A stretch of DNA of 64,000 nucleotides from assembly GCA_951406725.2 (NCBI GenBank), contig OX597818.1:101432001-101496000 (forward strand), read 5' to 3'. Numbering within the stretch: position 1 is the stretch's first letter; every line of letters begins with the position of its first letter. Below, one piece after another: positions 1-40,193 of the stretch. This stretch comes from Octopus vulgaris. Lineage: Eukaryota. A program made the translations under genes and the position numbers. The notes below the pieces were generated by a model. It was given only the letters and a program-made list of their open reading frames with translations. It had not been told where the DNA came from and searched no databases.

Positions 1-2001
1 ACATCAACTGCATGAAAGATATAAATTCATACAAATTTTAACGTTCATTTTCTATCCTAATCTGCGTGATATTCAGCATACAACAGTGCAAAAATACCTT
101 AAATATATTTTGACAATACAAATGGATAATTGATTAAAAGCTACCGACGTAAAAACAAATAGAGTGGTAACAATCTCTCGTCAGGCAAGTACTTCAGCCC
201 TTTACGTCTTCCAAACTAGTGGGAAAGATCTGCAACTAAATCATGATTCCTGAGTGCGCTACTACTGATATACTCTAGTTTGAAATCGGATATTCGTTCA
301 TCCCCTGTGCAGTATTTTTCAATCCATCTGGCCTGGCATATTGAGCAATCATGGTTCCCACTTTGCCAGAATAGACAGATATAGGAACCTGCTCTTTACA
401 AGTAAACCTTAGCTAGGACAACACACATACATGCATACAAATATACGCACACACATAATAGCTACAAGTGTTAAATATAACTGATCCTCATCTAAAAGAC
501 AACACACTTTTATGCGCTTAGGAAAATTACAACCGTATGCTTAATGTTGTATGGTTTCCACTAGTATTCCTTTCAATGTAAAAATAAATGAATATTATTT
601 TTTGAACTTTGTTAATGTATAGCTTACATGTAATTAAACACAACACACCTTGCAATCTTCAATAATTATACTGCTTCTTTATGAAAAGGAATCGTTAACT
701 CTAAAACTCGCATCACTAATGTATATCTGTAATATCGCTTAAATTTTTTAGCCTAGCATTTATGTGCAGTAAGTATGTTGATTCTTACTTTAATATAACT
801 TCGATTGAGAAATTACAAATTTTTTCTGAGAATAAGTAATCTGTGAAATTTAACATTTACAAACCTATTAAAATTAAACGATGATATGTTCAAGCATATC
901 TACATAATCTACATATGTCCAACAAATACCTTTGCGTTTTAAAGAAAGAGCTGGGAGAACAAATCTGATGTGACTCTAATCTAGGTGTTTGCATGTATGT
1001 ATATAAAATGAAAATGCAACCTACCTCATGAAGAAGAATTCCCAAGCGTGTTCCCTGCTTTTAAAGTGTACGAAATGATCATCTACACCCGGAAGCCTGT
1101 GATATAATTAGTATGAGTAGAAATTATGTTAGCTTCGTAGAATTATTAGATATTGTATATATTACCAATTTGATATCAAGAAAAATAAAATAATAATAAA
1201 TGTCAGAGCGAGTTATAAACAGTAGCTACAACACATTGTGACGTACATCTGTCATTTAAATATGGCTAACACCTAAGATTGGATGCTAATGTAGTTTGTA
1301 GCCCCAGGAGGACACCTCCTACAGCTGGCCATAGAGACAATTTCTGTGCCCTATCAGTGTTTGCAAAGGGAAGCCATCCTTCCCGTCTTAAACTTATGAT
1401 ACACACGGACTTGTGTGGATTTTGTAACCGATAATCCAATTTCCGACATTTTAGGAGTAATCATGTTCAATATATCTATACAACTATCAATATTAAATCT
1501 CCAACTTCATATTCAGAGTTATTTTACCTTATCTACGCTTGTGAATATTGAAATTTTTTTTAAATCACAAATATCTTCCCGCATATTGATATCTTGAAGT
1601 TATTTCGTTACCATGATTTTTCGCCAAAACACGCTGACCGTATTTTAAATGGTTTGAAAATGATGCAAAATATAGAAAAAAAGAATAGGAATAGTACATA
1701 TAACCTACATTAACAGGTTATTTTCATGGAAGGATAAATTCTGTAGCACTTTCAAAATGGAGTGGGTATCATAAAACTAAAAACGTTATTTGGAGGCTTT
1801 ATATCAAAAAAGGCATTTCAAATGAAAGAGCTCGGAAAAAATTCATATTGTTTTTATATCCTTTTAATGGTTTCGGCAATAGGGCTGAGGCCATGCTGGA
1901 GCACCAGCCTAATTTTCTATCAGTATTTAACGCCTTATGCTTGGAGGTTATGATTGAGTTGAACATCTCTCTGTGTATCCATGGACGATGGGCTGCCCCG
2001 G
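1..2001. repeat. Segmental/tandem duplication copy 1 (near-identical to 62000-64000)
   Basis: Position 1 acatcaactgcatgaaagat recurs at 62000 and the alignment runs to the window end with only scattered substitutions. Offset is about 61,999 bp. Confidence 0.97.
1025..1096 (-). CDS. Gene A 72-nt exon (LPGVDDHFVHFKSREHAWEFFFM)
   Basis: Acceptor tatatcacag| and donor AG|gtaggt, phase 2-2. Frame and splice sites are conserved in the paralogue at 63024-63095. Confidence 0.7.
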
Positions 2002-3135: not shown

Positions 3136-3596
3136 CATCAATAAAAAACTGTTTCAATTTGAAAAATACAGAATACGTCATAATATGCACATATACCCAA
3201 CTTTTATCTTTTTGCATATTTCACCTCACGATTACATCACTGTACATAAATCCCTTCACTAAACAAGGTTTTCGAAACTTGTCTATGTCTGTGCACATAT
3301 ATATTCTCCGCATTACCGAAAGCTGAACAGTTATCACTCTTACCAACAAAAATAGCAATAATAGCGATAACGAATTACATCCATGTATTCATCTACTTTT
3401 GAATTTCATCACACACAACATGAACAAAATTTCTTCTTAAGAAAAAATACATATTCAAATAAGTAAAATATATGTTCATGAATAGCGATAGCGAATCCGG
3501 TCGATAGATTAAAAATTATATTAAAACTATGCAATTGTGCGTATTTTCCTTATTTAATTTCTTATATATATATATATATATATGCATGGATATACA

Positions 3597-3682
<86 letters not shown>

Positions 3683-3930
3683 CATACGTACATATATACC
3701 ATATATATGCAAAGATACGTACATATATATGTATATGTATATATATATATATCTAATTATGCATATATATACACACACACATATATATATATATATATAT
3801 CTATATTGTATAGAGGGCATTAATACACTTAAATGCCTCACACTAAGAGGGACAAAGTCATTACTACCAAAATTACACTAATCATACCTAAATGGAGTTC
3901 TTCAAAGCAAGACATTTAAAAAATGAATTT

Positions 3931-3988
3931 AGTTCTGTATCACCGTGATTTCACATTTAACTTACGTCTTATGATCCTCAGCAAAACT
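3931..3988 (-). ncRNA. Hammerhead motif, inverted copy of 4179-4236
   Basis: Exact reverse complement, lying in the inverted arm. Confidence 0.62.
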
Positions 3989-4178
3989 GATAAGAAGTTA
4001 TCCTTAATTGTTAATTTTATTCCGAAATACTTTTGCTACCCGACATGCAGTTCGAAAAAGCCCGCCATTTACCGAATATATGATTTATAAACATTCCATG
4101 TGCTTGGCCGGAGTGAATAGATGTCTGTTCGTCTTCGCTAGGTAAGGTTGGTGGTTTATTTATGATGTGTTCAGAATC

Positions 4179-4236
4179 AGTTTTGCTGAGGATCATAAGA
4201 CGTAAGTTAAATGTGAAATCACGGTGATACAGAACT
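4179..4236 (+). ncRNA. Type I hammerhead ribozyme motif in Penelope-type terminal repeat
   Basis: Stem I agttttg/cagaact, core CTGAGGA, weak stem II cat..atg, GAAA, stem III Atcac-g-gtgaT, cleavage site UA. Confidence 0.65.
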
Positions 4237-4492
4237 AACTTCATTTTTTAAACGTCTTGCTTTGAAGAACTGCATTTAGGTATGATTAGTGTAATTTTGG
4301 TAGTAATGACTTTGTCCCTCTTAGTGTGAGGCATTTATGTGTATTAATGCCCTCTATACAATATAGATATAATTAATTTGTTCAAAAGAAAAAAATTATT
4401 TTCGAATTCTTTTTTTTTATGAGGTTTTCACGCTAACTACCTGATAATTTCTTGTTAAGATTCCTTATTAAGAAGTTATCCTTAATTGTTAA

Positions 4493-4523
<31 letters not shown>

Positions 4524-4605
4524 CATACATACGTACATATATACCATATATATGCATACATACGTACATATATATGTATATGAATATATATATATATCTA
4601 ATTAT

Positions 4606-4685
<80 letters not shown>

Positions 4686-5233
4686 GTGCGTGTGTGTGTA
4701 CGAGGGCTGAGTATTGAGTATCGGGAATGTTGCCATGGTAACAAACTGAAACGCGAAAAGTGAAGTCACTTGGCCAAACTCTGCCTGCGAATAAATTTCT
4801 TATATTCTTACCATTTTCCGCGTTGTGCAGCAGTGCTTCCATGGCAGGTGTGTAACATGCGATCGTCGCCTTGCTAATGACAGAGTATCTGCATCATATT
4901 TAGGCAAAAGCTTGGCGATATGTGCAAAAAAGTTTCATAGTTATCGATAGATTAAAGCAGATAATGTGATGATAATGATCTGAACTCAACCGTATATAAT
5001 CTGGATAACTCGCGTATTGTAATTTTGTGATTTCTCCTCAAAGCTGTACGAATGGCTGCGATGTTTTTATCAGTACGGTTGGTTGCGGTTCTTCGAAAAC
5101 GTTCCACATCATCGACATTTTACGGCCATCTTGGAAACAATCACACATTATATCAATTCGACTATCAAACGCCACACAACATACATCCAAGTAGTGCAGT
5201 AAACAGCGGAGGTAAGCTAGAACGTATACCTTA

Positions 5234-6724
5234 GTGCGGATGCACAGCAATATTCAGGGACAATATGTACCTATCGGCTTTATTCTACGTTCTTTTGCTT
5301 CATTACTTTTGCATCATTCCGGATACAAATTCATCAGCCATTATATATATGCCGCAAATATCCATCAGGTAAAGAAAATGATCGCACATGCACTAGGAGC
5401 TAGTATAAGAGTTACTCTAAAAGGCCACGCATTTAAATTTAATAATAAAATATATGCACAGGACGAGGGGGCAGCCATCGGTGTTAGTATCGCTGGTGAT
5501 GTGGCCAACTTTTTCATGATATGGTGGGACAGAAGGCTTAAAGAACGCCTACTGCAGAAATCCATACTCGTAAACATTTACTATCGCTATGTTGATGATA
5601 TCAACATAGTAGTAAAATCACCCCCACAAGAGAGTAATGTTGATATAATAATAGAAACTAATACTATGGAGAGCATCCAGCAAATAGCTAACTCCATCCA
5701 CCAGAGTATTAAGGTCACAATAGACTACCCCACTAAACACCCCAACCATAGACTACCAGTACTAGACACTGAACTCTGGCTAGACATTGTGAAAAGTAAA
5801 ACCCAAATCCTTCATTCATACTATGCAAAACCTATGGCCTCAAAATACCTGATCCACCGGAACTCAGCCATTGCGGGCAATGCCAAATTCAATATTTTGA
5901 TGGCTGACCTTGTCAGAATAATGAGAAATGTGTCACGAATGTGCGAGCCTACAGAATTAAAGAGACACATACAGTATTTCATTCACCACATGCAGTTCTC
6001 AGGGTACAGCCATAAAGAAAGGATCAGTGTATACAAAGGAGCCATGAAGAAATTTGATAATATATTACGTAATGATAGGAATGGGATTTGCCCACTCTAT
6101 AGGAACAAGTCATGGAACGCTATAGAAAGGACAAAAAAGAAAATAGGGAATGCCAACTCTTGGTATGATAGCCATAAATACCAGAGTGTCATGTTCGTTG
6201 ACACCACCCCTGGAGGTGAACTGGCGTACCGCTTTAGAAGGACCCTAGATAAACTTAAACTAAGAATTAAGGTTGTTGAAAAGCCAGGCAACCCTATCAA
6301 ATCTATAATCGGTAGAACCTATCCTTTTAGTAGAACCCTCTGTACAGGTAATTATTGCACTGTATGTAGATTTAGCCCACCAACAAACTGTAAAGCCAGA
6401 AATGTAGTCTATAGTATAAGATGTATAGAGGGACGATGCAGTAACAAGACAGTAATATACGTAGGGGAAACAGCAAGAAGCATAGGAGAGCGGGAGAATG
6501 AACATTGGAGACAACTCAAGGAAGGTAAAAGCTCATCGATTCTGTACCAACACGCCGAACAGGAACATGGGGGATCAATCAATAACATAGAGATTAAGAT
6601 ATTGTCGACACATAGAACAGATGCAACAATTAGACAAATTACAGAAGCTACACATATAATAGAAAATAAACCTAGCCTGAATAGAAAACTAGAATGGAGC
6701 AATAGCACACACCACAACATATGA
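5234..6724 (+). CDS. Penelope-like element RT + GIY-YIG endonuclease, 5'-truncated (element-derived sequence starts about 5353)
   Basis: RT motifs [20 protein letters not shown]; C-terminal VVYSIRC..C...[12 protein letters not shown] and E...I......LN. The first ~40 aa are read-through from the mariner-derived repeat. Confidence 0.93.
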
Positions 6725-6847
6725 CGATAGAGGATTCCGAAAACATAATAAATACACAGATAAATAAACAAATAGAAATGAATAGCTATATATATGTATA
6801 TATATCTATGTATGTATATGTATGTATATATATATATATATATATAT

Positions 6848-6897
<50 letters not shown>

Positions 6898-7485
6898 GTG
6901 TATGTATGTGTGTATATGTATATATATATTTTTTTTTTTCGATTAGATTTATTATTACTATTACTAATATTGTTGTTATACATACATACAATCATATGTA
7001 ATGATAATAATGGGTGGATGTAAACACGTGAACAAAATTAGAACAAAAGCAACAACAACAAAATCAAAATACAAATTACATGAATGTATATAAACAGAAG
7101 ATACAAATATTACAGGCATCCCCCACACACACACACTAAATTAGCATAGACGCACATAGATATATAAGCATGCGCAAATGAAGACACACAATATATATAT
7201 GAAGACACACAAAATGGCCGACGGTTAGTAAGGAGAGACACAAATAAGTGAGAAGAAACGAAGGACCACTGATGCGGTCACAGGAGTGTGACGAAAGAAC
7301 TCTGGCCGAAATAAGATTATGATTAATGTAAAAATTAAATATCAAATAACACCAAAAATAACACCAAATATATAGTGCGTGTGTTTTTATTGGCTAAACT
7401 GGCAATATGACCATTCCGAAATATAACAATATCTGTTTCAACAAACGACTTCACATAAAAAATCTGGCACAACAAATATATAAAC

Positions 7486-7538
<53 letters not shown>

Positions 7539-7560
7539 CATGTATGTGTGTGTGTGTGTT

Positions 7561-8300
7561 TACGAGGGCTGATTATTGAGTATCTGGGCTGTTGCCATGG
7601 TAACAAACTGTAACGCGAAAAGTAAAGTCACTTGGCCAAACTCTACAGCACTTGCGCATAAAACTTTAGTATTCTAGCCAATTTCCGCGTTGTGCAGCAG
7701 TGCTTCCATGGCATGTGTGTAACTTGCGATCGCCGCCTTGTAAATGACAGAGTATGTTGAGCAAACAATCTGCATCAAAGCTTGGCGATATTTGCAAAAA
7801 ATATTCATAGTTATCGATAGATTAAAGCAGATAATGTGATGATAATAATCTGAACTCAACCGTATATAACGTGCATAACTCGCGTATTGTGATTTTGTGA
7901 TTTCCCCTCAAAGCTGTACGCATGGCTGCGATATTTTTGTCAGTACTGTTGGTTGCGGTTCCCAGCATATCGACATTTTTCGGCCATCTTTGAAACAATC
8001 ACACATTATATCAATTCGACTATCAAACGCCACACACCTTACATCCAAGTAGTGCTGTAAACAGCGAGAGTAAGCTACAGTTTAAACCTTAGTGCGCATA
8101 CACAGCAGTATTCGGGTTCAATATGTTCCTATGAGCTTTATTCTAACTTCTTTTGCTTCATTACTTTTGCAACATTCCGGATACAAATTCATCAGCCATC
8201 ATATATATGCCGTCGAATGGAGAGAACTTGAAATACTCAGAATAGAAAACATGAATGAGTGGTGCAATCATTTCGAATTTAGTTTTATTGAGGTCTAGAC
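7561..8300 (-). mobile_element. Second degenerate mariner remnant, repeated in every array unit
   Basis: TACGAGGG terminus; minus-strand remnant resembling mariner HTH2 (HKITIRE). Confidence 0.65.
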
Positions 8301-8431
8301 TTACAGGATCGAGAGCAGCGATAAGAGATAATCCAGATGAGCTGATATGGAGATACTGACACAGATAAGCATGCTTAGTCTTTATATAAATACATACAAT
8401 AACACACATACACAATGACGCACTCGCACGC

Positions 8432-8495
<64 letters not shown>

Positions 8496-8831
8496 GAGTG
8501 TGTGTATGTGTGCATGCGTGTGTCTCCGTATGAGTGTGTGTCCATGCTTGTGTATATATATATCGAGAGGATCTCTTAATTTTTAGAAGGGATCGAAACC
8601 TGAATATATGTCGTACATCACTGCGGATATTCATATTCTTTTACGTTAGAAACAAATGGGTAATGTGTTGCATCCTTCAGTATTTGGAACTGCAAATACT
8701 GTATATGTTAAAAACAAAATAATGTCCAACGTTTTGCTGAACAAATTTCAAACGTGGAACCAACGATTCACGGGTACATAGATGTTGCAAAGGGAATATG
8801 ACAATATCCATTGTAAATGAGGTGTACATAC

Positions 8832-8933
8832 CGAAGATTTGGCGTAGTCCTTATGGTACTTGTTACCTCATCTTGCAGAATTGTTTTGGTGTCATTTTGA
8901 ATCTCCTCCGCTGTAGTGGAATTCAGTGCATTA
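8832..8933 (-). CDS. Gene A 102-nt exon copy 4 (NALNSTTAEEIQNDTKTILQDEVTSTIRTTPNLR)
   Basis: Acceptor cctttttttctttaatgccag| and donor CG|gtatgt. Phase 2-2; the other two frames contain stops. Confidence 0.7.
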
Positions 8934-9845
8934 CTGGCATTAAAGAAAAAAAGGTCGTACATTTTATCCATTATTGCTACAGACACCAGCAGCATAATGA
9001 AACAATAATTGCTTTAAACAAAGTATAGGTGGTAGATTGTAATTAGCATTGACAATGATTAGTCACGTACAAAATATAAAACTTAAGTATTTAGAGAAGC
9101 AAATATCAAAACCCCACTTTAAAAATTCGTTCAATTTCTATGGATATCGGAAAAATCCATTCATAATTTTCCTTACAAGTGGTGCTATCAACGCGTTATG
9201 TACCTAGGTTTTAACATCATATACTTCGAGTCACCTTGCGCAGACACACACTGAACCCAGCGTCTCTGCCACTTTTGGAATTCGACCTTGAATACGTCGT
9301 CCGTACGTGTCGAGGACCTTCTGCTATTAACTGTGAATCTCGACAACGGTTTTGAAACGGTGATCTTTGTTCTACTTTTCATCGATGTGAATTGATGGAA
9401 GCTCGAAGGAGATAAATCTTACAAATGGCATTGTTGAAACAGCGATAACATTTTAGTTTTGACCAGAAACTCACGAGACAGATGTGGTGAAAAATACAAT
9501 TCTTTGCACTCCAAAACACGGTCGATTTCGCCGAATGTCCTATTTCAAAACATCGCAATCGAACCCTCTATTAACAGTTTGGTTCAAAGTATCCGTTATC
9601 ACCCTTACCAACAAAAATAAAAATAATAGCGATAACCAATTACATCACTGTACTTCTCTACTTGTGAAGACATTCACTCGTGAATTTCACCAAACACAAC
9701 ATGGACAAAATTTCTTCTGAAGAAAAAATACATATTCAAATAAGTAAAACAAAATATCTTGAATAGCGATAGCGAAACTTGTCGATATGATAAAAAATAT
9801 AATAAAACTATGTAATTGTGCGTATTTTCCTTTTTTTAATTTCTT

Positions 9846-9896
<51 letters not shown>

Positions 9897-9941
9897 CTAG
9901 TATATATATTTATATATATATGTATCTATATACATATATCG

Positions 9942-9973
<32 letters not shown>

Positions 9974-10339
9974 AATTTCAACAATTGAGGGTAAAATTAA
10001 TTAATTATTAATCAATTTCACCAAGTGTTCAGTATGCAAAGGGACCATTTAAGGCGAATTCAAATTATTACATTATATAAAAGGGCTTAGTAAAATAAAT
10101 TACTTCGCCGCATACTGAACTCATTAGAAATAGCAGCTAAAAAACTTTTTTAAAGCTATTTCTAATACTTAAAGAAAATCTCTCTCATATATAGCGTTTG
10201 CTTAATTTAACACACAAAAGGGGAGAACAGAAATGATTCACTTGCTTATTTGGGTTTGCTGGCACTGTTAGTTAAGAGCGGATCTTCGAAAGGGTATGTT
10301 CTTACTTTCAGTGTTTCCAAATCCAAACCAAGGAATTTA

Positions 10340-10392
10340 TGAGCTGAAGAGAGAAATGTTTGTTTTGACTAATCTTGAAACGTACGTACTCA
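10340..10392 (+). ncRNA. Type I minimal hammerhead ribozyme motif
   Basis: tgag CTGAAGA gaga...tctt GAAA cgtacg TA ctca, with palindromic stem III ACGTACGT. Confidence 0.7.
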
Positions 10393-10885
10393 AATAACCT
10401 TAGCATTTGATTTTTTAATGTCCTTACCCCCAAACTTTTGTGTGTTAAATTAAGCAAACGCTATATATGAGAGAGATTTTCTTTAAGTATTAGAAATAGC
10501 TTTAAAAAAGTTTTTTAGCTGCTATTTCTAATGAGTTCAGTATGCGGCGAAGTAATTTATTTTACTAAGCCCTTTTATATAATGTAATAATTTGAATTCG
10601 CCTTAAATGGTCCCTTTGCATACTGAACACTTGGTGAAATTGATTAATAATTAATTAATTTTACCCTCAATTGTTGAAATTATAATTAATCTCCCTCTAA
10701 TTATTACTTCGGATTTTACCGAAATAAGCATAGCGTTTGATGATTTTGACCCACGCTGGTGGAAAGGGGAGAACAGAAATGATTCACTTGCTTATTTGGG
10801 TTTGCTGGCACTGTTAGTTAAGAGCGGATCTTCGAAAGGGTATGTTCTTACTTTCAGTGTTTCCAAATCCAAACCAAGGAATTTA

Positions 10886-10938
10886 TGAGCTGAAGAGAGA
10901 AATGTTTGTTTTGACTAATCTTGAAACGTACGTACTCA
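10886..10938 (+). ncRNA. Second tandem copy of the same hammerhead motif
   Basis: Identical to 10340-10392, 546 bp downstream. Confidence 0.7.
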
Positions 10939-11121
10939 AATAACCTTAGCATTTGATTTTTTAATGTCCTTACCCCCAAACTTTTGTGTGTTAAATTAAG
11001 CAAACGCTATATATGAGAGAGATTTTCTTTAAGTATTAGAAATAGCTTTAAAAAAGTTTTTTAGCTGCTATTTCTAATGAGTTCAGTATGCGGCGAAGTA
11101 ATTTATTTTACTAAGCCCTTT

Positions 11122-11163
<42 letters not shown>

Positions 11164-12478
11164 GCATATGCATATATACACAAACATACATATATATATA
11201 TATATATAAATGTACATATGTATGTGTGTTTACGAGGGCTGATTATTGAGTATCTGGGCTGTTGCCATTGTAACAAACTGTAACGCGAAAAGTGAAGCCA
11301 TTTGGCAAAACTCTACTGCGCCTGCGCATAAACTTTTAGTATTCTAGCCAATTTCCGCGTTGTGCAGCAGTGCTTCCATGGCATGTTTGTAACTTGCGAT
11401 CATCGATTTGTAAATGCCAGAGTATGTTCAGCAAACAATCTGCATCAAAGCTTGGCGATTTGTGCAAAAAATGTTCATAGTCATCGATAGATTAAAGCAG
11501 ATAATGTGATGATAATGAACTGAACTCAACCGTATATAATCTGGATAACTCACGTATTGTAATTTTGTGATTTCTCCTCAAACTGTACGAACGTCTGCGA
11601 TGTTTTTATCAGTACTGTTGGTTGCGGTTCTTCGAAATCGTTCCACAATATCAACATTTTACGGCCATTTTGGAAACAATCACACATTATATCAATTGGA
11701 CTATCAAACACCACACAACATACATCCAAGTAGTGCAGTAAACAGCGGAAGTAAGCTACAACGAAAACCTTAGTGCGGATGCACAGCATAATTCAGGGAC
11801 AATATGTACCTATCGGATTTATTCTACGTTATTTTGCTTCATTACTTTTGCATCATTCCGGATACAAATTCATCAGCCATCATATATATGCCGTCGAATG
11901 GAGAGAACTTGAAATACTCACAATAGAAAACATGAATGAGTGGTGCAATCATTTCGAATTTAACTTAATGGAGGTCTAGACTTACAAGATCGAGGGCAGC
12001 TATAAGAAATAATCCAGATGAGCTGATATGGAGATAGTGACGCAGACGAGCATGCTTAGTCTTTATATAAGTACATACAGCAACACACATACACAAATAC
12101 GCACTCACACGCATATATATATATATATATATATATACATTTGTGAGTGTGTGTATGTGTGCGTGCGTGTGTCTCCGTATGAGTGTGTGTCCATGCTCGT
12201 GTATATATATCGAGAGGATCTCTTAAGTTTTAGAAGTGATCGAAACCTGAAGTTATGTCGTATATCACTGCGGATATTCATTTTCTTTTACATTAGAAAC
12301 AAATGGGTAATGTGTTGCATCCTTCAGTATTTGGAATTGCAAATACTGTATATATTAAAAACAAAATAATGCCCAACGGTTTGCTAAACAAATTTCAAAC
12401 GTGGAAACAACGATTCACGGGTACATATATGTTGCAAAGGGAATATGACAATATCCATTGTAAATGAGGCGTACATAC

Positions 12479-12580
12479 CGAAGCTTTGGAGTTGTCCTTA
12501 TGGTATTTGTTACCTCATTTTGCAGAATTGATTTGGTGTCATTTTGAAGCTCCTCGGCTGTAGTTGAATTCAGTGCATTA
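12479..12580 (-). CDS. Gene A 102-nt exon copy 3 (same peptide as copy 2)
   Basis: Intact AG/GT sites, phase 2-2, open frame. Lies inside ORF 12415..12642. Confidence 0.65.
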
Positions 12581-13488
12581 CTGGCATTAAGGAAAAAAAG
12601 GTCATACATTTTATCCATCATTGCTACAGACACCAGCAACATAATGAAACAATAATTGCTTTAAACAAAGTATAGATGGTAGATTGTATTTAGCATTGAC
12701 AATGATTAGTCACGTACAAAATATAAAACTTAAGTATTTAGAGCAGCAAATATCAAAACCCCATCTTAAAAATTCGTTCAATTCCTATGGATATCGGAAA
12801 AATTCATACATAATTTTCCTTACAAGTGGTGCTATCAACGCGTTATGTACCTAGGTTTTAACATCATATACTTTGAGTCACCTTGCGCAGAAATACACTG
12901 ATCCCAGCGTTCCTGCCACATTTGGAATTCGACCTGGAATACGTCGTCCGTACGTGTCGAGGACCTTCTGCTATTAATTGTGAATCTCGACAACGGTTTT
13001 GAAACGATGATCTTTGTTCTACTTTTTATCGAAATTATTGGATGGAAGATCGAAGGAGATAAATCTTCCAAATGGCATTGGTGCAGCAGCGATAACATTT
13101 TGGTTTTGGCGAGAAACTAACAGGTCAGATGTGGTGAAAAATCCATTTCTTTGCACTCCAAAAACACAGTCGATTTTGCCGAATGTCCTATTTCAAAACA
13201 TCGCAATCGAACCCTCGATTAACAGTTTGGATCAAGGTATCCGTTATCACCCTTACCAACAAAAATAACAATAATAGCGATAACCAATTACATCCATATA
13301 TTTATCTACGTGATAAGACATTCACTCGTGAATTTCACCACAGACAACATGGACAAAATTTCTTCTGAAGAAAATATACATATTCAAATAAGTAAAACAT
13401 AATATCATGAATAGCGATAGCGAAACTTGTCGATATATGAAAAATTATAATAAATCTATGTAATTATGCGTGTTTTCATTTTTTAATT

Positions 13489-13538
<50 letters not shown>

Positions 13539-13554
13539 ATCTCTCTCTCTATAT

Positions 13555-13608
<54 letters not shown>

Positions 13609-13628
13609 GCATATGTATATATAGACAA

Positions 13629-13678
<50 letters not shown>

Positions 13679-14944
13679 GTATGTGTTTGTGTGTGTTTAC
13701 GAGGGCTGATTATTGAGTATCTGGGCTGTTGCCATGGTAACCAACTGTAACGCGTAAAGTGAAGTCATTAGGCCAAACTCTACTGCGCCTGCGCATAGAA
13801 CTTTAGTTTTCTAGCCAATTTCCGGGTTGTGCAGCAGTTCTTCCATGGCATGTGTGTAACTTGCGATCGCCGTCTTGTAAATGACAGAGTATGTTGAGCA
13901 AACAATCTGCATCAAAGCTTGGCGATATTTAGAAAAAATGTTCATTGTTATCGATAGATTAAAGCAGATAATGTGATGATAATTATCTGAACTCAACCGT
14001 ATATTACCTGCATAACTTGCGTATTGTGCTTTTGTGATTTCCCCTCAAAGATGTACGCATGGCTGCGATATTTTTGTCAGTACTCTTCGTTGCGGTTCTC
14101 AGAAAACATTGCACAATATCGACATTTTTCGGCCATCTTTGAAACAATCACACATTATATCAATTCGACTATCAAACGTCACACACCTTACATCCAAGTA
14201 GTGTTGTAAACAGCGGGAGCAAGCTAGAGTCTAAACCTTAGTGCTCATGCACAGCAGTATTCGGGGTCAATATGTTCCTATCGGCTTTATTCTAAGTTCT
14301 TTTGCTTCATTACTTTTGCAACATTCCGGATACAAATTCATCAGCCATCATATATATGCCGTCGAATGGAGAGAACTTGAAATACTCACAATAGAAAACA
14401 TGAATGAGTGGTGCAATCATTTCGAATTTAACTTAATGGAGGTCTAGTCTTACAAGATCGAGGTCAGCTATAAGAGATAATCCAGATGAGCTGATATGGA
14501 GATAGTGACGCAGAGGAGCATGCTTAGTCTTTATATAAGTAGATACAGCAACACACATACACAAATACGCACTCACACGCATATATATATATATATATAT
14601 ATACATTTGCGAGTGTGTGTATGTGTGCGTGCGTGTGTCTCCGTATGAGTGTGTGTCCATGCTTGTGTACATATAACGAGAGGATCTCTTAATTTTTAGA
14701 AGTGATCGAAACCTGAAGTTATGTCGTATATCACTGCGGATATTCATTTTCTTTTACATTAGAAACAAATGGGTAATGTGTTGCATCCTTCAGTATTTGG
14801 AATTGCAAATACTGTATATATTAAAAACAAAATAATGCCCAACGGTTTGCTAAACAAATTTCAAACGTGGAAACAACGATTCACGGGTACATATATGTTG
14901 CAAAGGGAATATGACAATATCCATTGTAAATGAGGCGTACATAC

Positions 14945-15046
14945 CGAAGCTTTGGAGTTGTCCTTATGGTATTTGTTACCTCATTTTGCAGAATTGATTT
15001 GGTGTCATTTTGAAGCTCCTCGGCTGTAGTTGAATTCAGTGCATTA
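14945..15046 (-). CDS. Gene A 102-nt exon copy 2 (NALNSTTAEELQNDTKSILQNEVTNTIRTTPKLR)
   Basis: Intact AG/GT sites, phase 2-2, open frame. Confidence 0.65.
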
Positions 15047-15953
15047 CTGGCATTAAGGAAAAAAGGTCATACATTTTATCCATCATTGCTACAGACACCA
15101 GCAACATAATGAAACAATAATTGATTTAAACAAAGTATAGATGGTAGATTGTATTTAGCATTGACAATGATTAGTCACGTACAAAATATAAAACTTAAGT
15201 ATTTAGAGCAGCAAATATCAAAACCCCATCTTAAAAATTCGTTCAATTCCTATGGATATCGGAAAAATTCATACATAACTTTCCTTACAAGTGGTGCTAT
15301 CAACGCGTTATGTACCTAGGTTTTAACATCATATACTTTGAGTCACCTTGCGCAGAAATACACTGATCCCAGCGTTCCTGCCACATTTGGAATTCGACCT
15401 GGAATACGTCGTCCGTACGTGTCGAGGACCTTCTGCTATTAATTGTGAATCTCGACAACGGTTTTGAAACGATGATCTTTGTTCTACTTTTTATCGAAGT
15501 TATTGGATGGAAGATCGAAGGAGATAAATCTTCCAAATGGCATTGGTGCAGCAGCGATAACATTTTGGTTTTGGCGAGAAACTAACAGGTCAGATGTGGT
15601 GAAAAATCCATTTCTTTGCACTCCAAAAACACGGTCGATTTTGCCGAATGTCCTATTTCAAAACATCGCAATCGAACCCTCGATTAACAGTTTGGATCAA
15701 GGTATCCGTTATCACCCTTACCAACAAAAATAACAATAATAGCGATAACCAATTACATCCATGTATTTATCTACGTGATAAGACATTCACTCGTGAATTT
15801 CACCACAGACAACATGGACAAAATTTCTTCTGAAGAAAATATACATATTCAAATAAGTAAAACATAATATCATGAATAGCGATAGCGAAACTTGTCGATA
15901 TATGAAAAATTATAATAAATCTATGTAATTATGCGTGTTTTCATTTTTTAATT

Positions 15954-16011
<58 letters not shown>

Positions 16012-16027
16012 ATCTCTCTCTCTATAT

Positions 16028-16083
<56 letters not shown>

Positions 16084-16101
16084 GCATATGTATATATAGA
16101 C

Positions 16102-16162
<61 letters not shown>

Positions 16163-17060
16163 GTATGTGTTTGTGTGTGTTTACGAGGGCTGATTATTGA
16201 GTATCTGGGCTGTTGCCATGGTAACAAACTGTAACGCGTAAAGTGAAGTCATTAGGCCAAACTCTACAGCGCCTGCGCATAGAACTTTAGTTTTCTAGCC
16301 AATTTCCGCGTTGTGCAGCAGTTCTTCCATGGCATGTGTGTAACTTGCGATCGCCGTCTTGTAAATGACAGAATATGTTGAGCAAACAATCTGCATCAAA
16401 TCTTGGCGATATTTAGAAAAAATGTTCATAGTTATCGATAGATTAAAGCAGATAATGTGATGATAATGATCTGAACTCAACCGTATATTACCTGCATAAC
16501 TTGCGTATTGTGCTTTTGTGATTTCCCCTCAAAGATGTACGCATGGCTGCGATATTTTTGTCAGTACTCTTGGTTGCGGTTCTCAGAAAACATTCCACAA
16601 TATCGACATTTTTCGGCCATCTTGGAAACAATCACACATTATATCAATTCGACTATCAAACGTCACACACCTTACATCCAAGTAGTGTTGTAAACAGCGG
16701 GAGTAAGCTAGAGTCTAAACCTTAGTGCTCATGCACAGCAGTATTCGGGTTCAATATGTTCCTATCGGCTTTATTCTAAGTTCTTTTGCTTCATTACTTT
16801 TGCAACATTCCGGATACAAATTCATCAGCCATCATATATATGACGTCGAATGGCGAGGACTTGAAATACTCACAATAGAAAACATGAATGAGTGGTGCAA
16901 TCATTTCGAATTTACCTTAATGGAGGTCTAGACTTACAGGATGGAGGGCTGCTATAAGAGAAATCCAGATATGCTGATATGGAGATAGTGACGCAGACGA
17001 GCATGAGTAGTCTTTATATAAGTACATACAGCAACACACATACACAAATACGCACTCACA

Positions 17061-17101
<41 letters not shown>

Positions 17102-17437
17102 TTGTGAGTGTGTGTATGTGTGCGTGCGTGCGTCTCGTATGAGTGTGTTTACACGCTTGTGTATATATATCGAGAGAGTCTTCTAATTTTTAGAAAGAAT
17201 GGAGACCTGAATATATGTCGTATAACACTATGGAAATTAATTTCTTTTTCATTAGTAACAAATGGGTGATGTGTTGCATCCTTCAGTATTTGGAATTGCA
17301 AATACTGTATATATTAAAAACACAATAATACCCAACATGTTGCTAAACAAATTTCAAACGTGGAAACAACGATTCACGGGTACATATATGTTGCAAAGAG
17401 AATATGATAATATCCATTGTAAATGAGGCGTACATAC

Positions 17438-17539
17438 TGAAGCTTTGGAGTTGTCCTTATGGTACTTGTTACCTCATGTTGCAGAATTGTTTTGGTGTAA
17501 TTTTGAATCTCCTCCGCTGTAGTGGAATTCAGTGCATTA
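17438..17539 (-). CDS. Gene A 102-nt exon, first copy in transcript order (NALNSTTAEEIQNYTKTILQHEVTSTIRTTPKL)
   Basis: Acceptor tttttttccttaataccag| and donor |gtatgt. Open only in phase 2. Thr-rich with N-glycosylation sequons. Confidence 0.7.
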
Positions 17540-17799
17540 CTGGTATTAAGGAAAAAAAGTTCATACATTTTATCCATCATTGCTACAGCAGCATAATTAA
17601 ACAATAATTGCTTTAAACGAAGTATAGATGATAGATTGTAAATAGCATTGACGATGATTAGTCACGTACAAAATATAAAACTTAAGTATTTAGAGCAGCA
17701 AATATCAAAACCCCACTTTACAAAATTCGTTTAATTTCTATGGATAATGTAAAAATTCATACATAATTTTCCTTATAAATGGTGCTATCAACACGTTAC

Positions 17800-18608
17800 G
17801 TACCTAGGTTTTAACAGCATATACTTCTAGTTACCTTGCGCAGAATATACACTGTTCCCAGCGTCCCTGCTCCTTTTGGAATTCGGCCTGGATTTCGTCG
17901 TCCCTACGTGTATCGAGGACCTTCTGCTATTAACTGTGAATCTCGACAACGGTTTTGAAACGGTGATCTTTGTTCTAATTTTCATAGAAGTGAAGGGATG
18001 AAAGCCCGAAGGAGATAAATCTTGCAAATAGGACTGGTGAAAAAACGATAACATTTTCGTTTTCGCGAGAAACTCATGGTGAGATATGGTGAAAAATCCA
18101 ATCCTTTGCACTGCACAGACATGCTTGATTTCGCTGAATGTCCTCCCTTCAAAACCTCGCAGTCGAACCCTCGCTTAACAGTTTGGATGAAGGTAGGCTA
18201 GATCAAATCTCATTGCACAGTAACACATTTCCAGCTGTGATACTTGCGGTAGGTTTTTTAGAAGGTTAATTGTCTTCCAGGGATGTTTCCCCGCTTTTGT
18301 ACAGCACGTCACATTTGAAATATTGCGTAAAACCCATTGCTTGGTGGCTGTAAGCTTGCCGAAGAATGTGCAATTTCTCTGAAGCAGAATTGTCAAGTTT
18401 AATACAAAATTTCACGTAGGCTCTTTGTTCCGTATTCCTTCTCATGGCAGAATCGCAGACTACTGCATATACGCGACCGCATAAGGACAAAGTTCAGACG
18501 TCGGGAAGTAAACACTGTGATGTTATACGGTACGTTGGTTCATGATGGTCACTTCACCCTGCTGGCGCGTAGACAGCTACTCCGTGGATATTTTCATACA
18601 ACCTCATA
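17800..18608 (-). mobile_element. Degenerate, internally deleted mariner (Tc1/mariner) transposon
   Basis: N-terminus EQRAYVKFCIKL...AY...GETSLED. C-terminus DLSPSGFHPF resembles YSPDLAPSDF, and the array copies read W..RW..C..AQGD. TATGAGGTTG-type end near 18608. Confidence 0.8.
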
Positions 18609-24196: not shown

Positions 24197-24240
24197 ATAA
24201 GAGAAACGGAGAGAATGAGCACGAAAATTATATTTCGCAT
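24197..24240 (-). CDS. Gene A first coding exon, signal peptide MRNIIFVLILSVSL(I)
   Basis: ATG at 24240 with a basic-then-hydrophobic N-terminus. Ends AT|gtaagt (consensus donor, phase 2). Joins in frame to the 102-nt exon, giving ...SVSLINA-LNSTT, a plausible cleavage site. Confidence 0.7.
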
Positions 24241-33242: not shown

Positions 33243-33358
33243 TCAGCCTATCATAACGCAGATTAATAATACATATCCCATCCATGGTTGGTATTCAACT
33301 TTAGACCCGTTATCTTTTTTTTCTTTTTCTTCTTTTTCTGTGGTTGTAGGAGGTTCTC
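33243..33358 (-). CDS. Terminal exon of a further gene (B) with a short hydrophobic, GPI-signal-like tail (GEPPTTTEKEEKEKKDNGSKVEYQPWMGYVLLICVMIG*)
   Basis: Strong acceptor tttcattttttgtatattgcag|, phase 1. Hydrophilic stalk, NGS, spacer, hydrophobic end. Confidence 0.55.
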
Positions 33359-33675
33359 CTGCAATATACAAAAAATGAAATTTTATAAGAATATAATTTA
33401 TTATTTCATGAATTATCAATATTATCCAAATCCACTTGAGAATTGTAGGCTTCTGAAGCATAGTTGTTCCTTTCCTTTGTGAGTGTAAAACAGACTTGCA
33501 CATCGTGAACATCAGTCTAACACTTAATTGCAACAGATATAAATTTTGGCGGAATTAAATTATCTCCACGTACATCTTTTTGATCATTATTCCAATCCAT
33601 GCTTAATACGCATATCTAAAGGTTCCATTTTAAGTCCCAGACGATTTGAATTTATGTTCCATTTAACGTACAAAC

Positions 33676-33725
33676 CTCCACCCTCTGTACTCAAATCATG
33701 TTTTGTTGAAGTGTTGAGACATTGG
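33676..33725 (-). CDS. Candidate internal exon of gene B (QCLNTSTKHDLSTEGG)
   Basis: Acceptor tttcattttctcacacgtgtcag| and donor G|gtttgt. Phase 2 to phase 1 fits the terminal exon. The start resembles gene A NALNSTT. Confidence 0.35.
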
Positions 33726-34507
33726 CTGACACGTGTGAGAAAATGAAACTGTCATAAGTTAAGGAATTCAAATCTTTCACTAATTTTACGCGATTTAATT
33801 AGGATGTACCGTGAATATTTCACTTTCATTCTTCTCTCGTAATGCGTTTAAAATATATAATTAATATTACATTGATCGAGTAAATTAATAGAAAGAATTC
33901 GCTTACATATGTACGATGTATAATTGGAAACATGGTTAATATATACATATGTGTGTGTGTGTGTGTGTGTGTGATTTGTGTGATTGCCAGTGTGTGTGTG
34001 TATGTGTGTGTGTGTGTAAATATTTCAAACAATTAGTGCTCGCTTCGCAGTTATTCCGTAAAACTATTGATAACGTTGTAGCATCGTGGGTGGGATTATT
34101 GTCGAAAGATTAATGCCAAAGAATGATAATAGGCGATGTGAAGAATATGCTACCCTCAGAGTTCATACTAAAAAGGGCAATATATATATATATACGTACA
34201 TATATATGTATATTTGCATATGCTTTATTTATTAATTTATTATTACATATATATATGCGTGTGTGAGTGTACAAGTTCAGTGGAGCTATAGTTTAATATG
34301 ATATTATCCTCACAGTTTAAAAAAATGTGATTATAATCAAAATAAGCAGCAAGAATATCCAGAGGTAATGCAGTACGATCGTTTTTGTGTGCAGTTGAAT
34401 ATTACTCTACATATTAAATCGATATAATGTTTGCATTGTTGAAAGGAACGAAGTATCATTGCACGATCGTGCTGCATTACCTCTGGATATCCTTCTGGGT
34501 TATATTG

Positions 34508-34849
<342 letters not shown>

Positions 34850-34929
34850 GCTTGAGTTGCTTTTCATCAGAAGGATTATATGTGATATATAATCTAATGC
34901 GATGAGGTAGGGAAAAATATGCTAAAATA

Positions 34930-36257
34930 TGATCTCTTTAGTTTTGGTCACGGATTTTTAATTACCGTTTTTTTTTAAACTAAAGAGTTGAAAATTTCAT
35001 ATACTAGTGTAATTTCTCATGCAGAACACATTTTACGTTGACCATTTTTTAAAAAAATCTTATTTTAGAAGTCATTTCGTGCTAAAGTTGTTGTATTTCG
35101 GCAATTCTCACCAATTAATGGCGTATATTCAGTTGAAGAAATCTACTGCTGTTCTCCAGGGTAAGCGAATAGGAACGACCTCCGGCTTATCTCTACTAAA
35201 TGACACAATATTTTTCTATTTCATTGTTGTTTACAGCCTGTGTTGCATATTACAAGCTTTTCTTTTTGGTTATCGCATCGGAGTACTCAGTAAGCAATGA
35301 CGAATTAACAGGAAGAATGAATAAATACTATTTACCTAAATTTTTTGTTGCCCGACATCAGTATTCAAAGTGCAGGTCCGTAGTTTGGGGAAATGTTTGG
35401 TTTTATCTACACATAAACCGCACCAGTTTTAAAAGACCTATACAGCTATGGGTCCGCAGCTATCTTTTTTATTGTTGAAGTATATATAGTTTCAACATGC
35501 CTTATGTTACAAATATGTGATATATTGAATTTGTAATGATTTTATCTTACTATAATCAACATTTCGTCAATATAAAAAAAAATAATATTATCAAAGGATA
35601 AAGGTAAAAGAAAACAAATATACTTTGTTTTCTTCCGGACCCTAATAGTCTTTCACGTTGTTAGCCAACCGACCTTTCATCTGAAAAAATTCAGTGGAAT
35701 CGGTCGATCTCGATACACAAATGATTTTCCTCCTGAAACTATCAAAAAAGTACACATATTAAGCGCAACTTTCTATGAGCCAAACACTAAATATTCCAGG
35801 TAATATATATTGACTTATGCAGCGGAAAATAGTGTAATTGTTGTGACAGTGACTAGTTCACTCGTTGCTTGGGAGTCGATAGTGTAGGAGTGTCTGTCTG
35901 ACAGACAGTAGAGAGGGAAGGAGTAAGGAATGCACGGTGCTTACTAGAAAGGAACAAAGAATGACATAGGAACAGAACAGTGTGCTGGCATTTATTCCAG
36001 GTGACCCGGACGTTGTTCCTCTTTGATTCCTATCGCAAACCCCAGTAGATTTCATCAGCTGAATACACCTTAGTGATTGGCTAAAATCACCCTAATACGA
36101 CAAATTTAACACAAAATCGGTTCTAAAGTACGTACTTTCGTAAAAAATGTTCAAACTAAACCGTATTCTGCGTGAGGAATTACACCAGTACATGAAGTTT
36201 GAAACTGCTTAGTTTTAAAAAAATATAATAAACTGTGTGCTAAACTGGACAGATCCC
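34930..36257. mobile_element. Older long-TIR non-autonomous element ending in GATCCC
   Basis: Imperfect inverted similarity between about 34930-35120 and 36075-36257. Confidence 0.55.
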
Positions 36258-38861
36258 TGAAAATGTATTAGGTGCAAATATGTTCTGCTTCTAAGATAGA
36301 TATATCGGAAAATGGATGTTCACAGAATATTTTCTGTGTGACACACTTTTTGTTTGTAACGCACCTTCCCATGATAGGATATTGATGAAACTCTTCTTTA
36401 CAGCTTTACATAATCTGCAATATAGAGATTAGAAATATGTTAGTATTCTAGCTTAATAAATTATGACATTTTGAAAGTAAAACTGAAATCTGAAATTAAA
36501 ACTAACTCGGAAAGCTGTTTTAATGACCATTGGGATTATTGAGTGACAAATTCAAGCATTCCTTTCTTATTAAAAATAGAACGCAATGCAAAAAGAAAAT
36601 AGAAGATACTTGTGCCCCAAACCTTTAAATACAAGTGTTTTAAATGGAAAACCTCTGTTCACTGTGTCTGAACTAATTAAACATGAAAATATATTACGGG
36701 AAACAATTATGGGGTGAACATGAGACGAACGTAATAGAAGTGAGAGCTAAGAAACTGCTGTTCTCGTTCATAGCGCAACATTTTTAGTAGGGATTTAAGT
36801 GATGGCGTAACAAACAAGCGCTGAGAGTTGAGAGTGTGACAGCAGGATCAAGAAGATTTGCAGCTTCACATTCAGTTTTATGCGCATTAACTGAAGATAG
36901 TAAAACAGGTTCAGAATAAGAGATCCTAGATATAAACTTTATCAACTGTTTTACTCGTCATTTTAAATGCAATTGACAAATACATAGCTGAATTCAAAAT
37001 TTAGCATCTGTAAACAGATATAAACTGCAAAATTGGATTTAACACGTATCACCTAGCGACTGATGCCCGTGTTTAAATATTAACAAATATGTAAAATTCT
37101 AGCCATATTTATCATAAAACTGTTTCACAATTCTAAGAGAAAGGGAGGTTCAACAGTGAAGCAATGCAAACTTAAGAGACATGATAATGTTTCCGACATT
37201 AACCTGGAAGACGGACTACGAACAGCTATGACTGTACGGTTTCTGATATCATATAAATCTTACTAAACCTGAACACACTTCACTAGAAGAAGGTGGTCAG
37301 CAGATACATAAGTACGCATCTGTGTTTCGATATGATTTTACAATGTTATAAAACAAATTCTAGAGCAAAGAATATTAAATTGAGAAGCTTTAGCTTAGGT
37401 TAAATGTAACTTTAAAAATCATAACTATAATTCAATATAATTCAGTATCAATATAATTCAGAAGGTTTCTAGAAAATATCTAGTTATAAAGAAGCAAAAT
37501 GAAAGTGGCCGTATTTTGTTGAACACAGGACGAATATACATAGAAAGGGATGTTAACGCATATGTGGTGCTTGCATGACCCAGACGTTGATTGGTTATTA
37601 ACAGAATCCTATTTCAGCTGTTGTTCCTAATTTCGCAGAAAACGGTAAAATATTGAAAACAACATTTGGAAAATTAAGGTATAAAGAAATATCATTTTAC
37701 AAGCCTGAAATGATACTTGATATTACGTTTAACGATGTCAAAATAAACAACTGTTGGAATTACATTCTGAGGTAGAAGGTAAGAAGAGTCCCCATATTGC
37801 TAAATCTGGAATCAGGTACACAATGTGATCAATTCACGATGTAACTTTTTTGAATATTTAATTAACTTTTGCTACTTACCTTTTTCCACACACTTTTAAT
37901 TTGGTACATAACAAAGGTTAGAATGTTTGTTCTTAATATGTTATATGATCTAGTCATTCTCTTTGTATACTCATTTATTCTTGAATGTTAAGAGATGTTT
38001 CTTTTTGTTTCTCTTTCCCAATTTCTAAATGGCTTCGTTTTTATTTACCACGTCTCTAATATATATGATATACATGTTGAATTACGCAAACCCATCCATC
38101 TACATATGTGCACTCGTTTATTTCACAGACCTATACACCTGCCATATAATATAACGACAATGAAAATTTTGAAAGGTAAACACGCAAACTCACTGGTTTT
38201 CTACAAATATCATTCTGTGTGTTTCATCCAGGCATTTGAAGATATACTTTTCAAAGTCGTCGATCAGAGCCTTGAAACCTTTTAAGCTTGAATGACAAAG
38301 AAGAAACTTATTAAACATAATTTTTCTCTCGATAATAAGTGACAACTATACAAATTTTATGGTTTCCATATTTATCAATTTGCTTTCATTTTCGAATCGA
38401 CAAAGTATTTCGATATGTCATTTCACCAAATGCTGACCTGGTCGTACCATTATTTACATTATGTCATATTACTATTGTCAGCCCTAAGGTGGTGAGTTAG
38501 TCGGACCTTTAGTACTTATCGGCTATTCCTCAGGCTATACGTTGTAATTTCAAACGCGCATAATCCTGCCAGTCAATAAAAGGGATCACTTACAAACTTG
38601 GTTCAATAAGTCGATTGGCCACTACAAATTTTACCACAACACATTTCGCGACTATGTTATAATGAATTTTCGATTTTGACATTATTCATTCTAGACATTC
38701 TAGATCTCAAAGTGTAACAATGGGGTTTAACGCAATTTAATCATAGATGTTATAATAACTTTGAGAGGGCAGGGGAAAATTGGTACAAAATTAATCGAAC
38801 AACTATACAACCTCACTATAAGGATACGATTAACTCCATTAAACTGTTGTATTAATATAAT

Positions 38862-39021
38862 TCAGTAGGTTTCTAGAAAATATCTAGTTATAAAGAAACA
38901 AAATGAAAGTGGCCGTATTTTGTTGAACACAGGACGAATATACATAGAAAGTGATGTTAACGCATGTGTGGTGCTTGCATGACCCATACGTTGATTGGTT
39001 ATTAACAGAATCCTATCCCAG
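38862..39021 (-). CDS. Putative terminal exon of gene C (WDRILLITNQRMGHASTTHALTSLSMYIRPVFNKIRPLSFCFFITRYFLETY*)
   Basis: First AG (aacaacag|) after a 68-nt intron that contains a CTAAT branch-like motif. In frame with ORF 38862..39053. Confidence 0.45.
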
Positions 39022-39089
39022 CTGTTGTTCGTAATGAAGGCGTTATAATCCATTCATTAGTTTACAATAAAATATAGATAAATACTTAC

Positions 39090-39803: not shown

Positions 39804-39854
<51 letters not shown>

Positions 39855-39859
<5 letters not shown>

Positions 39860-40151: not shown

Positions 40152-40161
40152 TACACACATG

Positions 40162-40193
<32 letters not shown>

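What the first reader, a model, noticed from the sequence alone, without database searches (positions are those of the whole stretch)
8832..17539. One coding exon quadruplicated inside a 2.47-kb intronic tandem array, all copies intact
Seen: four copies of a 102-nt phase-2 exon keep AG/GT and an open frame while differing at several residues (I/L, D/Y, T/S, D/N/H, S/N, N/K). Surrounding unit sequence is decayed mariner and microsatellite with indels. Inference: the copies give either a tunable-length glycosylated stalk (1-4 x 34 aa) or mutually exclusive variants of the mature N-terminus, since each copy also supplies the end of the signal peptide.
Basis: partly seen in the sequence, partly recalled or inferred. 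Interest (0 to 1): 0.7.

Follow-up and report, generated by a model that had tools for sequence, protein, structure and literature searches.

The report
Octopus surface protein with multiplied exon
An octopus-only gene, predicted to encode a cell-surface protein, carries four intact tandem copies of one small exon; spliced transcripts join copies one after another, so the copies likely build a sugar-coated extension of variable length at the protein's outer tip rather than a menu of either-or variants.

Summary
Observation confirmed. Four 102-nt phase-2 exons (minus strand) keep AG/GT and an open frame; spacings are 3647, 2466 and 2493 nt, and the middle two exons are identical. They are exon 2 of a 17-exon, 427-aa octopus-specific gene, predicted type I membrane protein: signal peptide, 4 x 34-aa repeat (two N-glycan sequons each), ~210-aa helical domain of unknown fold, TM, tail. 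Neighbouring paralogues hold 6 and 1 copies; the O. sinensis RefSeq gene has 3, modelled as abc, ab, bc, ac. Contigs from 3 of 5 RNA-type runs (2 organisms) join copy to copy, so strict mutual exclusion fails and the near-identical pair is unlikely to be an assembly artefact. The repeat lies at the distal N-terminus, not in a juxtamembrane stalk. One shared junction points to a single founding duplication, then unequal crossing-over. Exons diverge as fast as introns (7.3% vs 7.1%); nothing shows that copy number is selected or skipping regulated. Works like CD45 RA/RB/RC, oyster bindin repeats or LPA KIV-2; member of none. The scan noted other octopus exon arrays on other DNA, not this one.

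The parts
24197..24240 (-). Gene A coding exon 1: start codon and most of the predicted signal peptide, phase-2 donor
   Evidence: matches N-terminus of O. sinensis P0006
17438..17539 (-). Repeat exon copy a (first in transcript order)
14945..15046 (-). Repeat exon copy b1
   Evidence: copy-to-copy joints in contigs
12479..12580 (-). Repeat exon copy b2, exon identical to b1; flanks differ at 6 of 655 nt plus one gap
8832..8933 (-). Repeat exon copy c (last); spliced to exon 3 in run X2
   Evidence: joint 1095-8831, CT..AC
1025..1096 (-). Gene A exon 3 (72 nt), start of the family domain; 11 further exons lie below the window start, down to about 34.7 kb outside it
3330..18195 (.). Whole tandem array of four units; internal unit junctions at 9592, 13240 and 15705 share one sequence (mariner remnant fused to another repeat)
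17801..18553 (-). Decayed mariner-type transposon; the array breakpoint (18195/18196) cuts it, so inner units carry only its 3' part
16175..16845 (+). Dispersed repeat of about 670 nt in every unit (2114 first-look candidates); family not identified by a tool
17100..17800 (-). Exon-bearing core of the unit: found only in the 11 array copies, apart from microsatellite-end hits, so not a recognisable transposon piece
9971..11132 (.). Insertion with a perfect 250-nt inverted repeat, private to gene A; lengthens one unit to 3.65 kb
5216..6721 (+). 502-aa ORF with weak RT and GIY-YIG hits (Penelope-like retroelement) inside the last unit
   Evidence: E 4e-4 and 8e-3, both under Pfam cut-offs
33243..63095 (-). 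3' part of paralogue A' (exon 3 to TM exon); A-like up to about exon 6b, C-like from exon 7; TGA at 33243-33245 inside the TM segment. Its six repeat copies lie just beyond the window end

Best explanation
The four units are a recent tandem multiplication of exon 2 of an octopus-specific gene predicted to encode a type I membrane glycoprotein; the copies are spliced in series, likely with optional skipping, and would add 34 N-glycosylated, Thr-rich residues each to the distal N-terminus. Shown: exon structure, open 427-aa frame, copy numbers 4/6/1 in three paralogues and 3 in O. sinensis models, copy-to-copy splicing, one shared unit junction. Inferred: one non-homologous duplication made the first dimer and unequal crossing-over changed the number since; the symmetric phase 2-2 makes any number of copies frame-safe; selection removes frame-breaking changes but leaves sequence and number loosely constrained; the extension acts as a glycan shield or spacer above the helical domain.
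For: All 16 introns of gene A are AG/GT and the frame is open for 427 aa with a strong TM window at 377. Copy-to-copy joints: X1 (178-nt contig, 76+102 nt, CT..AC), X3 (203 nt, 101+102 nt) and X6 (132 nt, 88+44 nt); 3 of 5 RNA-type runs, 2 organisms, 2 studies; none in the intron-covering run X9, about 76% read. O. sinensis LOC115231167: X1 = a-b-c (223 aa), X2 = a-b, X3 = b-c, X4 = a-c (189 aa each). Same junction at 3 of 3 inner boundaries in A and 4 of 5 in A', none in single-copy C. Sequon 1 in 11 of 11 copies, sequon 2 in 9 of 11; 9-11 Ser/Thr per 33 aa. Two family members on other chromosomes whose first exons were both located (P0008, P0024) join the signal exon straight to the exon-3 equivalent. 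No disabling change in 11 copies vs about 4.5 expected.
Against: Contigs cannot count copies per transcript; no joint was seen in X5 or X2. Skipping rests on RefSeq models whose read support I could not see; reads across near-identical exons can be misassigned. The one-copy contig in X1, X3 and X5 matches paralogue C at its ends, so it is not evidence of skipping. Exon divergence equals flank divergence (0.073 vs 0.071) and pN/pS of 0.51-0.57 is not different from neutrality (p = 0.18). Glycosylation, surface location and function are untested. The repeat has a single Pro and AlphaFold models it as low-confidence helices (pLDDT < 50), so it is not a classical mucin.
Confidence: 0.72

Rival explanations
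1. Constitutive inclusion of all copies with purely genomic, near-neutral copy-number drift (an LPA KIV-2-like VNTR); the two-copy RefSeq isoforms are noise or mapping artefacts.
For: Exon diverges as fast as intron; 10 of the 12 internal exon types are phase 2-2 or end in phase 2 through exon 11, so frame-safe skipping needs no special mechanism; copy number differs 4/6/1/3; no direct read evidence of skipping seen.
Against: Three different two-copy models exist in RefSeq; copies a and b differ at the exon start, so exon1-to-b and a-to-c joints are at least partly distinguishable.
Confidence: 0.35
2. Mutually exclusive (Dscam-like) use of one copy per transcript.
For: Copies differ at several residues and are all intact. 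One-copy contigs exist.
Against: Copy-to-copy joints in 3 of 5 RNA-type runs; 4 of 4 models of LOC115231167 have 2 or 3 copies; the one-copy contig matches paralogue C.
Confidence: 0.04
3. The b1/b2 pair is an assembly artefact (two alleles laid in tandem); the true number is three, as in O. sinensis.
For: b1 and b2 exons are identical and the duplicated tract differs by only about 1% over one unit length; O. sinensis models have one b.
Against: X3 holds a 203-nt spliced contig of two b-type copies in tandem (1 and 0 differences); X1 also joins two b-like copies; A' has its own near-identical pair (P2/P4).
Confidence: 0.08
4. The array is a diversifying recognition module (gamete, self/non-self or pathogen-facing) under selection for variation.
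For: Lineage-restricted surface protein, hybrid paralogue, copy order apparently different in X3, fast sequence change (pN/pS 0.52 between A and C outside the repeat).
Against: No pN/pS above 1; amino-acid differences among copies are few and conservative; no tissue or ligand data.
Confidence: 0.15
5. The repeats are cut out as peptides at the basic residue that ends each copy (polyprotein precursor).
For: Each copy ends in Lys/Asn-Leu-Arg before the next; distant family members have an R-x-K-R site elsewhere.
Against: The junction lacks the P4 Arg of a furin site and is not dibasic (rules recalled); copy a ends in His/Gln in this genome.
Confidence: 0.04

Closest known systems
CD45 (PTPRC) cassette exons 4-6 (RA/RB/RC); PMC4730250 (passages), PMC3384337 (search listing only)
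   Same: Combinatorial inclusion of cassette exons that change the size of a glycosylated extracellular segment of a membrane protein; that they lie at the distal N-terminus is recalled and fits a reference title seen in PMC4730250.
   Different: CD45 exons are ancient, O-glycosylated and tightly regulated, on a phosphatase; here they are recent near-identical duplicates with N-sequons, copy number varies in the genome, no enzyme domain, and regulation is not shown.
Pacific oyster sperm bindin F-lectin repeats; PMC5712786 (passages of a review)
   Same: Mollusc gene with tandem repeats in introns holding microsatellites and a retroelement; 1-5 repeats per mRNA set by alternative splicing and recombination.
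   Different: Bindin repeats are folded lectin domains under positive selection in a secreted acrosomal protein; here a 34-aa non-lectin repeat, no positive selection detected, TM anchor, tissue unknown.
LPA kringle IV type 2 VNTR; PMC6314250, PMC11462820 (search listings only)
   Same: Multi-kb exon-plus-intron unit repeated in tandem, copy number sets protein length.
   Different: 5.6-kb unit coding a folded kringle, 1-40 units; here 2.47 kb, one short exon, 1-6 units, with modelled skipping.
Hybrid glycophorin genes GYP(A-B); PMC11073628 (search listing only); anti-Lepore geometry recalled
   Same: Paralogue A' is a 5'-A/3'-C hybrid lying between its parents, the expected product of unequal crossing-over.
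   Different: Unrelated sequence; A' has a stop inside its TM segment.
O. sinensis LOC115231167/LOC115231142/LOC115212221/LOC115231305 and the wider family (LOC115222984, LOC115220626, LOC115220522/3; O. bimaculoides LOC106881475, LOC106881480, LOC106876345)
   Same: Direct orthologues and paralogues; all named uncharacterized or hypothetical by their sources.
   Different: Database models are fragments for this locus; members on other chromosomes lack the repeat and mostly have an R-x-K-R site followed by a Gly-rich hydrophobic stretch.

Membership tests
Mutually exclusive tandem exon cluster (Dscam1 type) | Only one homologous exon per mature mRNA (definition read in PMC8373072 passages) | tested here: not met
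   Copy-to-copy joints in X1, X3, X6; RefSeq models with 2-3 copies
Tandem duplicated exons included in series (repeat expansion) | Homologous adjacent exons with symmetric phase | tested here: met
   102 nt, phase 2-2, AG/GT
Tandem duplicated exons included in series (repeat expansion) | Copies spliced to each other | tested here: met
CD45-like cassette length control | Isoforms with different copy subsets from one gene | tested here: inconclusive
   RefSeq X1-X4 only; read support not seen
CD45-like cassette length control | Cell-state-regulated inclusion | not testable with these tools
   No tissue labels, contigs give no levels
CD45/PTPRC family | FN3 and tyrosine phosphatase domains (recalled) | tested here: not met
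   Predicted tail is about 30 aa, too short for a phosphatase; no Pfam hit above cut-off
Mucin PTS repeat | Pro/Thr/Ser-rich, O-glycosylated, extended repeat (recalled) | tested here: inconclusive
   S+T 9-11 of 33 but one Pro; low-confidence helical model; glycans untested
Oyster bindin / F-type lectin | F-lectin domain repeats | tested here: not met
   Repeat is 34 aa, far below a lectin domain; no lectin Pfam hit
Oyster bindin / F-type lectin | Positive selection among repeats | tested here: not met
   pN/pS 0.51-0.57 on 28 variants; low power
Coding VNTR (LPA KIV-2 type) | Copy number polymorphic within a species | tested here: inconclusive
   Differs between paralogues and species; copy order in X3 differs from the reference; no population data
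Any known protein fold for the ectodomain | Significant sequence or structure match | tested here: inconclusive
   Model of P0013 mean pLDDT 45.8; best VIA Z 6.5, rmsd 3.4, 99 aligned, generic for helical bundles

The most novel reading that the evidence does not exclude
A newly gained exon was amplified into a polymorphic, combinatorially spliced glycan extension on an octopus-only receptor family whose cluster also makes a hybrid, TM-truncated (possibly secreted decoy) paralogue: an independently evolved CD45/bindin-like diversification system for cell or gamete recognition in cephalopods.
Probability: 0.15. Interest if true: 0.7.

Novelty: new member of a known kind. Interest (0 to 1): 0.4.

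Why it matters
It is a young, fully readable case of exon gain followed by exon multiplication: a zero-copy state (distant paralogues), a one-copy state (gene C) and 3-, 4- and 6-copy states sit side by side, with the founding junction preserved. It corrects fragmentary annotation of an undescribed octopus surface-protein family (no paper found for six of its locus ids). If inclusion is regulated or the array is polymorphic, it gives a direct test of whether cephalopods vary cell-surface recognition molecules in the way CD45 or oyster bindin do. The mechanism itself is known.

Tried and rejected
No RNA holder was on record as RNA; the runs are treated as RNA because contigs join exons across CT..AC introns. 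Contig depths were not used to rank genes or isoforms. No Pfam family above cut-off for the protein family; no PDB sequence hit; Foldseek PDB and viral libraries 0 hits at E <= 0.001; ESM Atlas no usable hit, best feature score 0.83, lead only; the spidroin N-terminal-domain rows in VIA (Z 5.4-6.5) were not accepted. These blanks rest on a low-confidence model. Amphipathic-helix idea for the repeat: moment not above shuffles (p about 0.29 in 3 of 3 repeats). Exon as exonised transposon: core unique to the 11 copies, so not supported. Homologous-repeat-mediated origin of the first duplication: the two sides of the junction are different sequences. A possible fifth unit at 3330-5354 has no exon and is part of unit c split by insertions. 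Homologues outside Octopus: none among 7 HMMER hits or 8 profile hits. Literature: 0 papers for the locus ids, 0 for cephalopod exon-duplication glycoprotein, 1 irrelevant-to-octopus hit, 4 unrelated listings; the primary bindin paper is not held; supplements were not searched and octopus omics tables may list these loci.

Full report
Observation. The window is AT-rich animal DNA (33.7% GC, no N). Four 102-nt exons lie on the minus strand at 8832-8933, 12479-12580, 14945-15046 and 17438-17539, each with AG and GTATGT and an open phase 2-2 frame. In transcript order they are a, b1, b2, c; b1 and b2 are identical. Spacings are 2493, 2466 and 3647 nt; the long one holds a private insertion with a perfect 250-nt inverted repeat. 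The genome holds 11 copies: 4 here, 6 in a paralogue about 62-69 kb away and 1 in a third.

The gene. Contig ends and protein searches led to Octopus records only, all named uncharacterized or hypothetical. Mapping them on the window plus 200 kb of flanks gave three tandem genes. Gene A: 17 exons, all AG/GT, 427 aa; C: 14 exons, 303 aa; A': 19 exons, 467 aa, ending at a TGA inside the TM segment. Gene A reads: hydrophobic N-terminus, repeats at residues 16-151 with 8 N-sequons, a ~210-aa domain with four Cys, a strongly hydrophobic window at 377 and a short tail. So the repeat is at the outer tip, not between domain and membrane. All introns from exon 1 to exon 11 are phase 2. The domain has no Pfam, PDB-sequence or fold match; the AlphaFold model of a relative is all-helical but weak (mean pLDDT 45.8). 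Its function is unknown; a surface receptor or adhesion role is inferred from topology alone.

Splicing. Five RNA-type runs were laid (X1, X5, X2, X6; X1, X3, X6 plus the intron-covering run X9). Three of five hold a contig joining the end of one copy to the start of another: X1 (178 nt, 76+102, skipped part ends CT..AC), X3 (203 nt, 101+102, both b-type) and X6 (132 nt, 88+44); two organisms, two studies. X9 shows no such joint. X2 joins copy c to exon 3. X5 and X2 show no copy-to-copy joint. A one-copy contig (X1, X3, X5) matches gene C at both ends, so it says nothing about skipping in A. The O. sinensis gene LOC115231167 has four models: a-b-c, a-b, b-c and a-c. Strict mutual exclusion therefore fails; serial inclusion is shown; skipping is modelled but its read support was not visible. 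[quoted passage not shown] One result is unexplained: a 61-nt X3 contig joins a c-type end to a b-type start, an order absent from gene A here and from the O. sinensis models; another haplotype or paralogue is the likelier cause, back-splicing the alternative.

Origin. The exon core is unique sequence between a decayed mariner and another dispersed repeat. Family members on two other chromosomes go from the signal exon straight to the exon-3 equivalent (P0008, P0024) and no relative elsewhere has the repeat, so the exon was likely gained in this cluster; loss elsewhere is not excluded, as no rooted tree was made. One junction, mariner fused to an unrelated repeat, recurs at 3 of 3 inner boundaries in A and 4 of 5 in A' and is absent from C: a single non-homologous duplication, then unequal crossing-over. 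First and last units of A and A' pair with each other in flank trees while inner units differ. The b1/b2 tract is one unit long and about 1% diverged; the b-b contig in X3 argues that it is real. A' is a hybrid: exons 1-5 differ from A at 11 nt and from C at 19; exons 8-12 differ from A at 29 and from C at 0. The order C, hybrid, A is what unequal crossing-over between C and A gives.

Selection. Mean exon divergence is 0.073, flank divergence 0.071 over 55 pairs. Of 28 internal variants 10 are silent and 18 change a residue: pN/pS 0.57 (pairwise 0.51), p = 0.18 against neutrality; the rest of the gene has 0.52 between A and C. Expected disabling hits are about 2.0 for four copies (P(0) 0.14) and 4.5 for eleven (0.011), of which stops and frameshifts make 3.4 and splice-site hits 1.0. 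The estimate is rough (flank homopolymer slips, gene conversion). It fits copies that are translated in series, where one frameshift ruins the protein; it does not show that each copy is needed.

Comparison. It works like CD45 cassette exons (PMC4730250, passages), oyster bindin repeats (PMC5712786, passages) and the LPA KIV-2 VNTR (listings), and is a member of none. No paper was found for the loci. Notes of this scan report other exon arrays in octopus genes (unchecked), none at this place or on this sequence, which suggests that such arrays recur in octopus and tempers the surprise.

Verdict. Real, spliced and well explained in mechanism; new member of a known kind in an undescribed gene family. 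Interest 0.4.

Noticed in passing
window 33243-63095 (-) and beyond the window end: Paralogue A' is a 5'-A/3'-C hybrid (switch near 45.5-47 kb) with six repeat copies and a TGA inside the TM segment; either a pseudogene or a secreted form.
   Followed up: partly
run X3 laid on window 14945-15047: Spliced joint from a c-type end to a b-type start, an order not in the reference gene; the contig overlaps the b-b contig by 30 nt, giving a graph path of three copies.
   Followed up: partly
P0010, P0019-P0024; G000:C15 about 30.6-30.7 Mb and C21 about 13.8 Mb: Distant family members have an R-x-K-R site followed by a Gly-rich hydrophobic stretch of about 35 aa and a hydrophobic C-terminus, reminiscent (recalled) of cleavage-activated fusion or pore-forming peptides; both features are lost in genes A and C. 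Viral fold search gave nothing.
   Followed up: partly
gene A exons 2-11 (window 1025-24240 and below the window start): Every intron through exon 11 is phase 2, with five exons of 15-39 nt, so almost any internal exon can be skipped in frame; some database models do skip exon 4 or 7.
   Followed up: partly
window 5216-6721 (+): Penelope-like RT + GIY-YIG ORF of 502 aa in the last array unit, shared by A and A' but not C, flanked by a partial duplication of the 670-nt repeat (4638-5354 vs 7498-8212, 86%).
   Followed up: partly
window 9971-11132 and 3796-4500: Two fold-back insertions: a perfect 250-nt inverted repeat and a 98% 196-nt inverted repeat; both are dispersed in RNA-run contigs.
   Followed up: no
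window 29400-32156 and 48268-54513 (+): Several decayed non-LTR retrotransposon copies with long RT-like ORFs, judged by eye from the translations.
   Followed up: no
gene A exons 8-11 vs gene C: Differences between A and C cluster in exon 10 (12 of 54 nt) and exon 3 (9 of 72) while exon 4 is identical; possible binding surface or gene-conversion mosaic.
   Followed up: no
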